A stretch of DNA of 64,000 bases from assembly GCA_000092065.1 (NCBI GenBank), contig CP000592.1; one strand, 5' to 3'. The DNA comes from Ostreococcus lucimarinus (Eukaryota). Shown here one piece after another: positions 57,611-60,599 of the stretch; the stretch's first letter is position 1, and each line of letters begins with the position of its first letter. The notes under the pieces were generated by a model. It saw only the letters and a list, made by a program, of their open reading frames with translations, was not told where the DNA came from and did no database searches. Made by a program: the position numbers and the translations under genes.

Positions 57611-60599
57611 CTACGTAGTCGCGGGCGCTTCAGGCGCCGGTGCATGCGCATCATCGACGGTTCCTTCGATGGAAGTAGTCGCGTGCACTTCGTGTGCCGG
57701 TGCATCCACGTCATCAGTGTCCATCGGCGCGGGCGCGGCCACAGGTACGCCCGGAACCGTTTTGGTTTGCAGCGGGTGTGCACCCCCCTGCTCTTGCGTG
57801 GGTTTGGCGTCGCCTTTCGAGTATTTCATGTCGACAAAATGAGTCGCTCGATAGTCATCGATCATCGCCACGTAAGCGAGCACTTCTTTCATCGAACGTA
57901 ATTTGTGGCCGCTTGGTGAGAGGAATTCTTTGTACGAAGTCCCCGCAAGACGTCCACCTTTTCGCTCAAACACGTCTACACGCCAGCCGCGACCGCGAAT
58001 GTCGATATTGGGCGCGTGCTTTTCGACATACGCGTACAATTTCTCAAGTTCGCTCGCTGTCGCGTTTCTGACGGCGAATTTCGTCTCGCGAACCTCGCTG
58101 ACTGGCTTCGCGGCGGTCGTTTTCGGCTTCTTCAACTCCAACCGATCTCTAAGTCGCACATTCTCCTCTTGCAGAGCGCGTACTTTCGCGCGCGAACTGT
58201 CGAGCTGGAACTCACGAGTTTGCACGCGTACTCGTAATCTTTCGAGCTCTCCTGCGTATGATTTCATTTCCTCTACGCTCACGGTGGAAGAGCCGTTGAT
58301 GCCCCTCTTAATATTCTGATCAATATAACGCGCATTTGCAGCGCGTTCCTCCGCGAGTTCTGTCTCGAGCTGCACGAACTTTTCCTCGAGAATCTTGAAG
58401 AAGCTCTCATCGATGACGGTTGAGAGCGCTTTGGGAACTCGAACCATCTGGTTTGGCTCTGCTTTGACATCAGGACGCTCCATATTGCTTTCTTCTTTCT
58501 CAGTGACTGTTTTCTTTGCATCTGCCGCTGCCGCGACTTTATTGACCAAAAGTGGAGGAACGGCAATAGCAGGCGAAGGCTCGACCGTTTGATCATCGAC
58601 CGCAGTGCGCACTTGAGCCTCTCGCATTAAATTCTCGCGCCGCGACACCGCAGTCGGTGCGGACGTCGGTGCGGAGTGGAACGCGTCGCCAGTGTCCGTT
58701 TCCGTTCTTGTCGGCCCGCGTGCGTCCGCTGCGGCGTGCGACGCTAGCGCAGGAACCACGAATTCCTCGTCTTCAATTCTAGTTTGCCATTGATACTCAA
58801 ACTCTCTTGACATGATGCGCGCCATCTTGAACACTGGCGTGTCGTCTTTGTTGTAAGTCATCGCATTGGACCAAACCAGTCGAACGTCGGCGGCGTACGC
58901 CTCGACATTTTTCTCGTCGTAATACCCCGCGTCGATGCGTTCTTTAATCGTACCGAGATCCATCGGATTTTTAATGACTTCGAAGTAGTCTGGAATCTCC
59001 CAGTACACCGGATCGACTGGACGCAAGAAAATGTACGCGTTCTTGTGTACCATGAGAGAGCGATGAATCGACTTGATGCGGGTAAGTGGGGTCGCGACAC
59101 GTCCGCCTTTCGGCCTACCGCGCGGCGCTGGAGCCTTATTCGCACCGTCGCTCCCTCCATCTTCATCGTCTTCGTCGAACGAGCTAGACTTGTGCAAACG
59201 TTTTCGTCGCTTCGCCGTTTGCTTCAAAGACGTCGTTCCCGCGCCGCGGCCGCCGCCGCCGGCTAAACGATACCTTTGAATACCGAAATAATAATCCTGC
59301 ATGCATTGCACTAGATGACGCTTGAACTTTTGATAGGTGATGTCGGCCTCCTTGAATGCTTGTTTGTTGTGTGTCGGTTCCAAGGAGTCCGCCTCGATGA
59401 CACCGATCATATCCTTCATCATTGTGTTCGCCTGCAGCTGCGAACCGAAGCGTTGGTGCATGCGAATCAATCGGTTCTTGTTGTAAATGTGGAACCCACA
59501 CTTCTTCGAAGTTTCATCCGCGGCGTATCCGATGTGAATCGTGATTCCCGCGTCCAAGCCTCGCGGCTTGTACTCCGGAAACACATAATATTCTCGCGCG
59601 AGATGCGCGATCGGGTCTCGCGGCACGACTGGTCGCCCGCGAAGCGTGAATTCGCACCGCGGTTTCAGGTACAAAATTTCCATGTAAGCACGTAAACTAT
59701 AGTCTTCCTGCACATCAATCGACGCCTGCTGGCCTTCGCGCGATTGTTGGAAAATCGGTCCGCGCACCGCTCGCTCGTCATCTGGGATAGCCCCCACCAG
59801 ACGAATGTCATCCTTGTAGCTCGTGAAATCCAACTCGGGCGGATCGCGCAAGTTGAAAAGTACGATGCGCGTCCCGTGTGAACCTCTTATCTTGTCCAAC
59901 TCTCGCATCAACTGTGGCTCCGAGGGTACGAATGAATATCGCAAGATCACAGACATGTGTTCATCCCATTTTTTCGTATTCGCTGGTTCGCTCGCGACGT
60001 ATGAAACCCTGCCGCCAGTCGTCGCGTCTCGCTCCATCCTCCACGAAAACATCGGAATCAGAATGTCGTCCAGCTCGGCGTCATCTAAAAACGTCTGTGA
60101 CAGGAACGCGACGTGGGCGTACCCATCTCTTTTCGTCAATATCAACGCGTCTCGCGCCAATCGCATCGATCCAGACTTAAAACCGATACCAAACCGCCCG
60201 ACGTTCCCAGCCTTGTGTTCCTTGTCGCTAAAACCAAACGACAGCATGCCGACCAGTCGCCGACGATCCATGCCCACGCCGTCGTCTTGAACGATGATGC
60301 CCACATTATTCTTGGGATCGACCATTTTAGAAAGCTCTACGACGTCGACGTGTACGGCTTTGGCTCCACACTCCGCGTCTTGCGCGCTACGTTCGAGCGA
60401 GAGCGAACGCGCGCGTCAGTCTCGCGTTCCGTCGCGTCGAAACGAAGAAAATCGAGCGAAAACGAGATTCACCGCGCCTCTCAAAATCGCATCGCTCCGC
60501 TTCGTAAACGCACTTATCGATCAGTTCCGCGAGCGCCCCTAACGGCCACACGTGACTCGTGGCGTTACCTGCGCTCAAAAACGACGCGACGCTCCGCAT
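57611..60599 (-). CDS. MORC: MORC-family GHKL ATPase fused to a bromodomain, a coiled coil and a methyl-CpG-binding domain. Two exons: 60599..60514 and 60386..57611 on the minus strand.
   Basis: Spliced N-terminus: MRSVASFLSAGNATSHVWPLGALAELID|NAQDAECGAKAVHVDVVELSKMVDPKNNVGIIVQDDGVGM..., which matches the MORC N-box/D-box (human MORC2 …[26 protein letters not shown]…FLDDGCGM). GRFGIGFKSGSMRLARDALILTK is the G-box region. Bromodomain: [42 protein letters not shown]...VWSNAMTYN. MBD: RGRGWRVDVFERKGGRLAGTSYKEFLSPSGHKLRSMKEVLAYV. Confidence 0.8.
60387..60513 (-). other. MORC intron (127 nt, phase 2). The donor is GAT AA|GTGCGT and the acceptor is GTAG|C, with a GACTGACG motif about 27 nt upstream of the AG.
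   Basis: Splicing joins AA + C to create the invariant Asn codon of the GHKL N-box (ELIDNAQDA). Without the intron the first exon (ORF 60387..60599) and the main ORF are in different frames. Confidence 0.75.

What the first reader, a model, noticed from the sequence alone, without database searches (positions are those of the whole stretch)
57611..60599. MORC GHKL ATPase fused to a bromodomain and a methyl-CpG-binding domain
One reading frame, plus one short intron, encodes the MORC ATPase module (N-box ELIDNAQDA, D-box VQDDGVGM, G-box GRFGIGFKSG), then a canonical bromodomain (…[23 protein letters not shown]…NAMTYN), a long coiled coil, and an MBD (GWRVDVFERKGGRLAGTSYKEFLSPSGHKLRSMKEVLAY). 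Animal MORCs pair the ATPase with a CW zinc finger. Plant MORCs have only the ATPase plus a coiled coil. A MORC that could read both acetyl-lysine and methylated CpG in one polypeptide is, to my knowledge, not a described architecture. It would be a compelling candidate for a DNA-methylation-coupled chromatin compaction or silencing factor in this alga.
Basis: partly seen in the sequence, partly recalled or inferred. Interest (0 to 1): 0.8.

Follow-up and report, generated by a model that had tools for sequence, protein, structure and literature searches.

The report
Ostreococcus MORC ATPase with bromodomain and MBD
A single, spliced and polyadenylated gene of the green picoalga Ostreococcus lucimarinus really does encode a MORC chromatin ATPase fused to a bromodomain and a methyl-CpG-binding-type domain, but this architecture was already catalogued in 2008 and its MBD lacks the canonical methyl-sensing tyrosine.

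Summary
On the minus strand, one gene encodes GHKL ATPase + S5 (MORC3-like, E 1e-63), a bromodomain (E 3e-20), two long helices and a C-terminal MBD core (26 bits; Pfam cut-off 21). The AF2 model of the MBD overlays MBD2 at 0.7-0.9 Å.

Spliced transcript contigs show four exons and three introns (1003 aa, ATG 60999-60997). One contig carries a poly(A) tail about 34 nt after the stop, so all domains sit on one mRNA.

The window is O. lucimarinus CCE9901. Residues 100-1003 equal XP_001420833.1, whose database model is N-terminally truncated and lacks the N-box.

The novelty claim fails. Iyer, Abhiman and Aravind (2008) list Bromo and TAM/MBD among domains fused to MORC, and the Figure 2 legend lists an O. 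tauri abbreviation.

New details:
- The MBD occurs only in the Ostreococcus-type orthologues. The other algal relatives examined have MORC-bromo-coiled coil without it.
- Both Arg fingers are kept, but the canonical Asp/Tyr pair is replaced by an invariant Tyr-x-Glu, so methyl selectivity is unproven.

Function is inferred: an ATP-driven DNA clamp directed by acetyl-lysine and CpG (possibly 5mC) DNA contacts. Interest is moderate to low.

The parts
60997..61152 (-). Exon 1: 5' UTR of at least 154 nt ending in the start codon ATG (60999-60997). An in-frame stop lies upstream in the UTR.
   Evidence: blastn of transcript contigs L001-L004 to the window; junctions and translation; upstream in-frame stop
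60882..60996 (-). Intron 1 (115 nt, GTGCG...CAG)
   Evidence: Absent from the transcript contigs; GT-AG ends
60704..60881 (-). Exon 2: aa 2-60 plus the first base of codon 61. Basic/acidic N-tail and the start of the ATPase N-terminal segment (…MEHSKAHPRMLK).
   Evidence: This segment aligns to MORC3 residues 8 onward and to the O. tauri N-terminus.
60569..60703 (-). Intron 2 (135 nt).
60514..60568 (-). Exon 3: aa 61-79 (SNATSHVWPLGALAELIDN), with codons 61 and 79 each split by an intron. Carries the first half of the N-box, including catalytic Glu75 and Mg-binding Asn79.
   Evidence: alignment to MORC3 '[21 protein letters not shown]'
60387..60513 (-). Intron 3 (127 nt, GTGCGT...GTAG).
57611..60386 (-). 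Exon 4 coding part: aa 79/80-1003 plus the stop codon (57613-57611). It is one uninterrupted reading frame covering the rest of the ATPase, S5, bromodomain, helices and MBD.
   Evidence: 904-codon ORF
57577..57610 (-). 3' UTR of about 34 nt, with the poly(A) addition site near 57577-57580
   Evidence: Contig L004 matches the window down to 57577 and then continues as A(22)
60074..60539 (-). GHKL (Bergerat) ATPase domain, Pfam HATPase_c_3, aa 71-183; the span includes intron 3. Motifs: N-box E75/N79/D82, DxGxG D113-G117, G2 box G142-G151.
59288..59703 (-). MORC S5-fold domain (Morc6_S5, aa 308-445) with the conserved THNKQ lysine, K420
58817..59070 (-). Bromodomain, aa 519-602. The ZA-loop Tyr546 (PDY) and the Tyr590-Asn591 (TYN) acetyl-lysine anchor are conserved.
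   Evidence: Pfam E 2.9e-20; alignments to BRD4, PBRM1 and BPTF
58133..58408 (-). Two long predicted helices (aa 739-775 and 783-830), the putative coiled-coil dimerisation region. It is preceded by the conserved VRVPxAL...DESFFK motif.
   Evidence: AF2 secondary structure with pLDDT up to 95; invariant columns
57824..58084 (-). C-terminal MBD module, aa 847-933: an N-terminal helix (852-869), the MBD beta-core and helix. Pfam MBD covers aa 878-918 (window 57869-57993). Arg887 and Arg909 are the two Arg fingers. Tyr897 and Glu899 replace the canonical Asp and Tyr.

Best explanation
This is the single MORC gene of Ostreococcus lucimarinus CCE9901. It has four exons and encodes 1003 aa.

Shown:
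- It is transcribed as one spliced, polyadenylated mRNA.
- It encodes, in order: a MORC3/4-like GHKL+S5 ATPase with the catalytic motifs present; a bromodomain in the position that the CW finger occupies in animal MORC3/4; a disordered linker; two long helices; and a compact MBD-fold domain.
- The MBD is found only in the Ostreococcus-type orthologues. The other algal relatives examined have MORC-bromodomain-coiled coil without it.

Inferred:
- Like characterised MORCs, the protein is constitutively dimerised through the helices. ATP drives dimerisation of the GHKL heads, closing a clamp on DNA and compacting or organising chromatin.
- The bromodomain docks the enzyme on acetylated histone tails. 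By analogy with the MORC3 CW domain, it may also gate the ATPase.
- The MBD contacts CpG steps in DNA through Arg887 and Arg909.
- My preferred reading is that the MBD still prefers methylated CG. O. lucimarinus methylates CG densely through DNMT5 in nucleosome linkers. The invariant Tyr-x-Glu pair would then be a swapped but functional version of the canonical Asp-x-Tyr pair. The enzyme would bridge an acetylated nucleosome and the adjacent methylated linker.
For: Gene and transcript:
- Intron-less contigs from independent runs, 99.9% identical to the window over exon 4.
- A poly(A) tail and an upstream in-frame stop.
- The N-terminus is conserved with O. tauri.

Domains:
- Pfam.
- MORC3 5IX1 aligns over aa 53-426 at E 1e-63, with the N-box, DxGxG, G2 box and S5 Lys motifs present.
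- The bromodomain Tyr/Asn anchor is conserved.

MBD fold:
- The top 34 Foldseek hits are all MBDs. MBD2-DNA complexes overlay at 0.7-0.9 Å over 39-41 residues with 41% identity. TAM domains appear only at E > 1.
- Both Arg fingers and 18 residues in total are invariant in 8 orthologues of 37-79% identity.

Evolutionary argument for retained function:
- The closest paralogous MBDs sit in an Ostreococcus ORC1/Cdc6-like protein.
- There the same domain slot is canonical D-K-Y in O. tauri and Y-K-E in sister clades.

Biological context: Mamiellophyceae, including O. lucimarinus, lost DNMT1 and keep DNMT5 (PMC10538959). Methylation in several diverse marine algae is confined almost entirely to nucleosome linkers (PMC5728721 citing Huff & Zilberman 2014); that O. 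lucimarinus is one of these species is my recollection of Huff & Zilberman, which I could not read.

Orthology: synteny MORC / 100-aa ORF / RNase HII / TOM20 is kept in the related contigs fetched for two orthologue clusters.
Against: - No biochemical or genetic data exist for this protein or any orthologue. Literature searches found none.
- The Tyr that gives canonical MBDs their methyl selectivity is Glu899 here. The Asp that positions the first Arg is Tyr897. By the published three-residue rule (PMC5240623), the domain would be predicted to have low methyl selectivity, like MBD3.
- The MBD match is short (41 of 77 profile positions) and its score is only about 5 bits above threshold.
- The other prasinophyte relatives examined lack the MBD, so it is not essential to the core function of this MORC subfamily. 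They probably include Bathycoccus and Micromonas, which also carry linker methylation, but I did not establish their taxa.
- Dimerisation, DNA clamping and bromodomain gating are all extrapolated from animal, plant and nematode MORCs (own knowledge).
Confidence: 0.5

Rival explanations
1. Same gene and architecture, but the C-terminal MBD-fold module is not a 5mC reader. It would be a methylation-insensitive DNA, CpG or RNA binder, or a protein-interaction surface. Known parallels are MBD3, human MBD5/6 and the BAZ2A/B TAM domain. In that case it only adds general nucleic-acid affinity or a partner-binding site to a bromodomain-targeted MORC clamp.
For: - Canonical Tyr is Glu899 and canonical Asp is Tyr897, in every orthologue.
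- The published rule holds that a Tyr-to-Phe change (MBD3) or a re-oriented Tyr (MBD4) lowers methyl selectivity (PMC5240623; PMC3159451).
- The C-terminal hairpin of the canonical MBD is missing or unconserved.
- The other algal relatives examined (taxa not established) function without the domain.
Against: - Both guanine-reading arginines and the surrounding RK-G-x-AG and RSMKEV motifs are invariant.
- The fold is much closer to DNA-bound MBD2/MBD1/MeCP2 than to TAM.
- Tyr and an acidic residue are both retained on the same strand face, only swapped. The swap alternates with the canonical D-x-Y in the same slot of the orthologous ORC1/Cdc6-like proteins.
- The host genome is heavily CG-methylated.
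Confidence: 0.38
2. The fusion is an annotation or assembly artefact. The ATPase, bromodomain and MBD would belong to separate adjacent genes or transcripts that merely happen to be in frame.
For: - The compact Ostreococcus genome gives overlapping transcript contigs. L001 and L002 run on into the next two genes.
- The database model is incomplete at its 5' end.
Against: - An uninterrupted 904-codon frame covers S5, bromodomain, helices and MBD.
- The contigs carrying this protein (22 on record, four examined) join all exons.
- L004 begins in the 5' UTR and ends with poly(A) about 34 nt after the stop.
- The same architecture is seen in 8 orthologue clusters down to 53% identity. Conserved synteny was confirmed for the two of these that were checked.
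Confidence: 0.01
3. The protein is a MORC3-like nuclear-body or antiviral effector rather than a general chromatin compactor. The bromodomain and MBD would target it to invading prasinovirus DNA or to particular chromosomal regions.
For: - The ATPase module is closest to animal MORC3/4 (E 1e-63 and 1e-51, against 1e-39 for MORC2). MORC3 has antiviral roles (own knowledge).
- A conserved hydrophobic LLVNxVAA motif in the disordered linker could be a SUMO-interaction-type motif (speculative).
Against: There is no evidence here for any viral link. The gene sits among housekeeping genes in conserved synteny. The motif assignment is untested.
Confidence: 0.1

Closest known systems
Ostreococcus tauri MORC-Bromo-TAM/MBD protein (XP_022840115.1 / A0A090M6R2; architecture in Iyer, Abhiman & Aravind 2008, Biol Direct 3:8)
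   Same: A direct orthologue with the same domain order and conserved gene neighbourhood in related contigs. Identity is 74% in the ATPase+S5, 70% in the bromodomain and 45% in the helix+MBD module. The same Y-x-E MBD variant is present.
   Different: A different species. The linkers are only 20-40% identical. The O. lucimarinus database model (XP_001420833.1, 904 aa) is truncated at the N-terminus, whereas the current O. tauri model is complete.
Animal MORC3 / MORC4 (ATPase-CW cassette; PDB 5IX1, 6O1E, 7K7T)
   Same: The GHKL+S5 module aligns over about 375 residues at E 1e-63 with the catalytic motifs present. A histone-reader domain follows directly after S5, and a C-terminal coiled coil is present.
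   Different: An additional C-terminal MBD-fold domain is present. No CW was found by Pfam.
Prasinophyte MORC-bromodomain proteins without MBD (e.g. Cymbomonas tetramitiformis CYMTET_11442; metagenomic relatives P0009-P0037)
   Same: The same MORC-S5-bromodomain-coiled coil layout, 41-60% identical over the shared part.
   Different: They end after the coiled coil and carry no MBD. The MBD is a C-terminal addition in the Ostreococcus-type orthologues.
Canonical methyl-CpG-binding domains (MBD2, MBD1, MeCP2, Arabidopsis MBD5/6)
   Same: The same fold core, with rmsd 0.7-1.7 Å and 32-43% identity. Both Arg fingers, the GW, RK-G-x-AG and P-x-G-x-x-x-RS motifs are shared.
   Different: Asp (MeCP2 D121) is Tyr897 and Tyr (Y123) is Glu899. 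The C-terminal hairpin is not conserved, and an extra N-terminal helix is present.
Ostreococcus ORC1/Cdc6-like protein with two N-terminal MBDs (O. tauri 'Methyl-CpG DNA binding', P0344; P0195)
   Same: It carries the closest paralogous MBDs. It was the best non-MORC hit to the profile, at 105 bits, with the same G-x-x-Y-K-E-[FY] signature.
   Different: The MBDs are attached to an AAA+ ORC1/Cdc6 module rather than a GHKL MORC module.

Membership tests
MORC family (GHKL+S5 chromatin ATPases) | Bergerat-fold GHKL ATPase with N-box (ExxxNxxD), DxGxG and GxxGxG motifs | tested here: met
   HATPase_c_3 at E 1.3e-17. E75/N79/D82, D113-G115-G117 and GRFGIGFKSG align to MORC3.
MORC family (GHKL+S5 chromatin ATPases) | MORC-type S5-fold transducer domain with the conserved lysine | tested here: met
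   Morc6_S5 at E 2.9e-25 across the full 139-position profile. THNKQ (K420) aligns to MORC3 THNKQ.
MORC family (GHKL+S5 chromatin ATPases) | C-terminal coiled coil for constitutive dimerisation | tested here: inconclusive
   AF2 predicts two long helices with pLDDT up to 95. Dimerisation itself was not modelled or measured.
MORC family (GHKL+S5 chromatin ATPases) | ATP-dependent N-terminal dimerisation and DNA clamping or compaction | not testable with these tools
   Requires biochemistry. It is inferred from characterised MORCs (own knowledge).
Bromodomain (acetyl-lysine readers) | Four-helix bromodomain profile match | tested here: met
   PF00439 at E 2.9e-20. 387 PDB bromodomain sequences match at E <= 1e-5.
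Bromodomain (acetyl-lysine readers) | Conserved BC-loop Asn and ZA-loop Tyr that anchor acetyl-lysine | tested here: met
   Y546 (PDY) and Y590-N591 (TYN) align with the PDYY and YN motifs of BRD4 BD1. The BRD4 residue roles are from own knowledge.
Bromodomain (acetyl-lysine readers) | Binding to acetylated histone peptides | not testable with these tools
   Needs peptide arrays or ITC.
MBD (methyl-CpG-binding domain) superfamily | Profile match above the curated threshold and the MBD fold | tested here: met
   PF01429 scores 26.1, 29.7 and 24.8 bits against a cut-off of 21 in three orthologues. The top 34 Foldseek hits are all MBDs, with rmsd 0.7-0.9 Å to MBD2.
MBD (methyl-CpG-binding domain) superfamily | Two arginine fingers that hydrogen-bond the CpG guanines (MeCP2 R111 and R133) | tested here: met
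   R887 and R909 are invariant in 8 orthologues.
Methyl-selective MBDs (MBD1/2/4, MeCP2 type) | Conserved Tyr (MeCP2 Y123 / MBD1 Y34) that confers selectivity for 5mC | tested here: not met
   The position is Glu899 in every orthologue. A Tyr sits two residues upstream instead. The rule is from PMC5240623.
Methyl-selective MBDs (MBD1/2/4, MeCP2 type) | Asp (MeCP2 D121) that positions the first Arg finger | tested here: not met
   The position is Tyr897 and is invariant. The role of this Asp is from own knowledge of the MeCP2 and MBD1 structures.
Methyl-selective MBDs (MBD1/2/4, MeCP2 type) | Measured preference for mCG over CG DNA | not testable with these tools
   Needs EMSA, ITC or fluorescence polarisation with the recombinant domain.
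TAM domain (BAZ2A/BAZ2B MBD-like) | Closer fold and sequence similarity to TAM than to canonical MBD | tested here: not met
   BAZ2A/B TAM structures appear only at Foldseek E 1.5-2.9 (ranks 36 and lower), against E 4e-3 for MBD2. phmmer gives BAZ2B E 1.1 against MBD2 E 0.002.

The most novel reading that the evidence does not exclude
The invariant Tyr-x-Glu MBD of Ostreococcus may be a functional, re-wired 5mC (or hemi-mCG) reader subtype. It is shared by the MORC GHKL ATPase and an ORC1/Cdc6-like AAA+ protein.

In the MORC it would let one enzyme grip a DNMT5-methylated nucleosome linker and an adjacent acetylated nucleosome at the same time. That would couple linker methylation to ATP-driven chromatin packing in one of the smallest eukaryotic nuclei. 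In the ORC1/Cdc6-like protein it would couple methylation to origin licensing.
Probability: 0.2. Interest if true: 0.65.

Novelty: already known. Interest (0 to 1): 0.35.

Why it matters
Ostreococcus and its relatives methylate CG in nucleosome linkers through DNMT5. In the literature I could search, nothing describes what reads that mark.

A MORC clamp carrying both an acetyl-lysine reader and an MBD is an obvious candidate effector, and O. tauri is genetically tractable. The architecture itself has been catalogued since 2008, so its existence is not news.

This analysis adds:
- a corrected, transcript-backed gene model that restores the catalytic N-box missing from the public O. lucimarinus protein;
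- the finding that the MBD occurs only in the Ostreococcus-type orthologues among the relatives examined;
- the finding that its methyl-sensing residues are non-canonical but invariant.

Together these turn 'reads 5mC' from an assumption into a specific question that can be tested.

Tried and rejected
- **Separate genes.** Rejected by spliced, polyadenylated contigs.
Rejected because it lies in intron 2.
- **TAM rather than MBD.** Rejected on fold and sequence ranking.
- **MORC+MBD fusions outside Ostreococcus.** I searched a profile of the MBD module against 1.84 billion representatives and got 130 hits. Apart from the Ostreococcus MORC cluster representative (P0007), none of the other 129 contained a MORC ATPase or this bromodomain by phmmer. 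This covers only MBDs similar enough to the Ostreococcus type.
- **Figure content of Iyer 2008.** The held supplement is 770 characters and the figure is not held. That the O. tauri drawing combines Bromo and TAM/MBD in one protein is therefore inferred from the text plus the legend.
- **Huff & Zilberman 2014 (PMC3969382).** Not held, so the linker-methylation facts are cited second-hand from PMC5728721 and PMC10538959.
- **Functional work on algal MORCs.** Literature searches found none. The 'MORC' hits in Ostreococcus papers were the author name Morcuende.
- **Gene neighbourhood.** It contains only housekeeping genes: RNase HII, TOM20, cyclophilin-RRM and RelA/SpoT-like. It gives no functional clue.
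- **Side-chain geometry of Tyr897/Glu899 relative to DNA.** I could not inspect it because model coordinates are not exposed.
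Full report
**Where and what.** The feature lies on the minus strand. A 904-codon open frame (57611-60325) is the only long ORF there. Pfam confirmed four domains at or above the curated thresholds: HATPase_c_3, Morc6_S5, Bromodomain and MBD.

**Organism and database status.**
- The 904-aa product clusters with XP_001420833.1 / UniProt A4S5V0 of Ostreococcus lucimarinus CCE9901, named 'predicted protein' and 'Bromo domain-containing protein'.
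- The O. tauri orthologue is XP_022840115.1, 'Histidine kinase-like ATPase', and OUS46630.1, 'Zcwcc3-prov protein'. ZCWCC3 is the old name of MORC3 (own knowledge).
- Residues 100-1003 of the protein I derive from the window are identical to XP_001420833.1. The window is therefore O. lucimarinus CCE9901 or an identical strain.

**Gene model.**
- A 1003-aa cluster member (P0133) comes from 22 contigs of 2-5 kb assembled from public sequencing runs.
- Aligning four of these contigs to the window shows four collinear blocks separated by three gaps of 115, 135 and 127 nt. Each gap starts GTGCG and ends AG, so the contigs are spliced cDNA.
- The model is:
  - exon 1 (5' UTR plus ATG at 60999-60997)
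  - intron 1, 60996-60882
  - exon 2, 60881-60704
  - intron 2, 60703-60569
  - exon 3, 60568-60514
  - intron 3, 60513-60387
  - exon 4, 60386 down to the stop at 57613-57611
Its ATG at 60599 lies inside intron 2.
- The 5' UTR has an in-frame stop before the ATG. The N-terminus MRRKQKP... is shared with O. tauri.
- Contig L004 matches the genome down to 57577 and then runs into A(22). That gives a poly(A) site about 34 nt after the stop.
- The public O. lucimarinus model starts at Met100 and lacks the N-box (Glu75, Asn79). It would look catalytically dead only because it is truncated.

**ATPase module.** Residues 53-426 align to the mouse MORC3 ATPase-CW structure sequence (5IX1) at E 1e-63, to MORC4 at 1e-51 and to MORC2 at about 1e-39. 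Five elements are matched:
- the N-terminal segment encoded by exons 2-3 (PRMLKSNATSHVWP against PKFLHTNSTSHTWP)
- ELIDNAxD
- DxGxGM
- GxxGxGFKSG
- THNKQ in the S5 domain

This is a bona fide MORC that looks catalytically competent.

**Bromodomain.**
- Pfam gives E 2.9e-20. The best solved relatives are PBRM1, BRD4 and BPTF.
- The PDY tyrosine (Y546) and the TYN tyrosine-asparagine (Y590/N591) align with the acetyl-lysine-anchoring residues of BRD4. The BRD4 residue roles are from own knowledge.
- The domain follows the S5 domain after a linker of about 70 residues. This is the position where MORC3/4 carry their CW finger (for the 5IX1 cassette; the CW position is own knowledge).

**Helical region.** AF2 on aa 606-1003 with seven orthologues gives the following:
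- disorder from 620 to 731
- two confident helices, 739-775 and 783-830 (pLDDT up to 95)
- the MBD module
- a disordered tail

The 'long coiled coil' is thus about 90 helical residues. That they form a dimerising coiled coil is inferred.

**MBD fold.**
- Pfam scores are 26.1 bits (O. lucimarinus), 29.7 (O. tauri) and 24.8 (a 58%-identical metagenomic orthologue), against a gathering cut-off of 21. The match covers profile positions about 11-57 of 77.
- phmmer against PDB finds only MBDs, with MBD2 at E 0.002.
- AF2 of aa 845-945 (pLDDT 77, about 90 in the core) gives a helix, a beta-hairpin core and a helix.
- Foldseek returns MBDs as its top 34 hits. MBD2-DNA complexes overlay at 0.7-0.9 Å over 39-41 residues with 41% identity. 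BAZ2A/B TAM domains appear only at E > 1.

**MBD contact residues.** The ungapped alignment to MBD2 and MeCP2 gives:
- Arg887 = MeCP2 R111
- Arg909 = MeCP2 R133
- Tyr897 in place of D121
- Glu899 in place of Y123

All four are invariant in eight orthologue clusters sharing 37-79% identity in this region.

The literature states that the two arginines read the CpG guanines and the tyrosine gives methyl selectivity. MBD3, with Phe at that position, and MBD4, with a re-oriented Tyr, are poorly selective (PMC5240623; PMC3159451). By that rule the domain passes as a CpG binder and fails as a canonical methyl-selective MBD.

Two points argue against simple degeneration:
- The Tyr and an acidic residue are both retained, two positions apart, and under strict conservation. 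I infer that they lie on the same strand face.
- The closest paralogous MBDs belong to an Ostreococcus ORC1/Cdc6-like protein (P0195; O. tauri P0344, annotated 'Methyl-CpG DNA binding'). They carry the same G-x-x-Y-K-E-[FY] signature. In the first MBD slot O. tauri has the canonical D-K-Y where sister clades have Y-K-E.

**Distribution.**
- The eight closest clusters (53-100% identity) all carry the MBD. For the two I fetched contigs for, the synteny MORC / 100-aa ORF / RNase HII / TOM20 is kept.
- More distant green-algal relatives, including Cymbomonas, MMETSP transcripts and many marine metagenome clusters, have MORC-S5-bromodomain and end in a coiled coil. Pfam finds no MBD in them and they lack the motif.
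- A profile of the MBD module searched against 1.84 billion representative proteins gave 130 hits. Only the Ostreococcus MORC group combined it with a MORC ATPase or bromodomain.
- MORC-bromodomain is therefore widespread among the green-algal relatives found, and the MBD occurs only in the Ostreococcus-type group.

**Prior art.**
[quoted passage not shown] They conclude that MORCs may respond to histone and DNA methylation. The legend of their architecture figure defines TAM/MBD and lists 'Otau: Ostreococcus tauri'.
- Ostreococcus is the only lineage in which I find MORC+MBD. I therefore infer that the O. tauri orthologue is the one drawn; the figure itself is not held.
- Dong et al. 2018 counted the O. 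lucimarinus MORC but did not mention its extra domains.
- I found no experimental work on any algal MORC.

**Mechanism.**
- Shown: an intact MORC ATPase, a bromodomain with its acetyl-lysine anchor, helices and an MBD-fold with both Arg fingers, all on one expressed polypeptide.
- Inferred from characterised MORCs (own knowledge): coiled-coil dimer, ATP-driven head dimerisation, DNA entrapment and compaction, and reader-domain control of the ATPase as for the MORC3 CW.
- Context: Mamiellophyceae lost DNMT1 and keep DNMT5 (PMC10538959). In several diverse marine algae, methylation is confined almost entirely to linker DNA between well-positioned nucleosomes (PMC5728721 citing Huff & Zilberman 2014); that O. 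lucimarinus is one of them is from my recollection of Huff & Zilberman, which I could not read.
- The most economical model is a bivalent clamp that docks on an acetylated nucleosome and on CpG, possibly methyl-CpG, in the adjoining linker.
- Methylation there is genome-wide rather than confined to silent regions, and bromodomains mark active chromatin. 'Silencing factor' is therefore not the obvious reading. Chromatin packing or nucleosome-array organisation is at least as likely.

I put about 0.5 on the methyl-preferring version and about 0.38 on a methyl-insensitive MBD.

**Verdict.** The finding is real and the annotation can be improved. The architecture is already known and uncharacterised. 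The claim of 5mC reading needs the caveat about the non-canonical Tyr/Asp positions.

Noticed in passing
window 60387-60999 (-): The public O. lucimarinus model XP_001420833.1 / A4S5V0 (904 aa) starts at internal Met100. It omits exons 1-3, including the catalytic N-box residues Glu75 and Asn79. Transcript contigs support a 1003-aa protein.
   Followed up: yes
L008 520-2988 (+); proteins P0195, P0343-P0356; O. tauri P0344: Ostreococcus-type picoalgae encode an ORC1/Cdc6-like AAA+ protein (AAA_16/AAA_22 plus a Cdc6_C winged helix) with two N-terminal MBDs. These are the closest paralogues of the MORC MBD. Most carry the same Y-K-E variant, but O. tauri MBD1 has the canonical D-K-Y. This is a possible link between CG methylation and replication licensing.
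   Followed up: partly
window 57235-57534 (-): A 99-aa ORF lies 76 nt downstream of the MORC stop on the same strand. It is conserved in synteny as a 100-102 aa gene in related contigs and has a weak DMAC1/Dmo2-like hit (E 2e-4, below the cut-off). Transcript contigs L001 and L002 run through it and on into the antisense of the RNase HII gene (56171-57166, +). This suggests overlapping transcription units in this compact genome.
   Followed up: partly
window 58529-58552 (-), aa 691-698: A short conserved motif, LLVNxVAA (L692, N694 and A698 invariant), sits in the middle of an otherwise unconserved disordered linker between the bromodomain and the helices. It may be a short linear interaction motif, for example SIM-like. 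This was not tested.
   Followed up: no
window 27380-29890 (+): An 836-aa ORF has a SAND domain (E 4e-9) and no other Pfam match. It is another putative DNA- or chromatin-binding protein in the window.
   Followed up: no
window 32093-34051 (-): A 652-aa ORF combines a Macro domain (an ADP-ribose binding or hydrolase fold) with a divergent CRAL/TRIO lipid-binding domain.
   Followed up: no
window 60882-60996, 60569-60703, 60387-60513 (-): All three introns of the gene are short (115-135 nt), cluster in the first 600 nt of the gene and start with GTGCG. The remaining 2.8 kb of coding sequence has no introns.
   Followed up: yes
window 7147-7221 (+): This is the only tRNA predicted in the 64 kb, tRNA-Ser(CGA). 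It lies inside two overlapping mechanical ORFs (5759-7303 on the minus strand and 6533-7384 on the plus strand).
   Followed up: no
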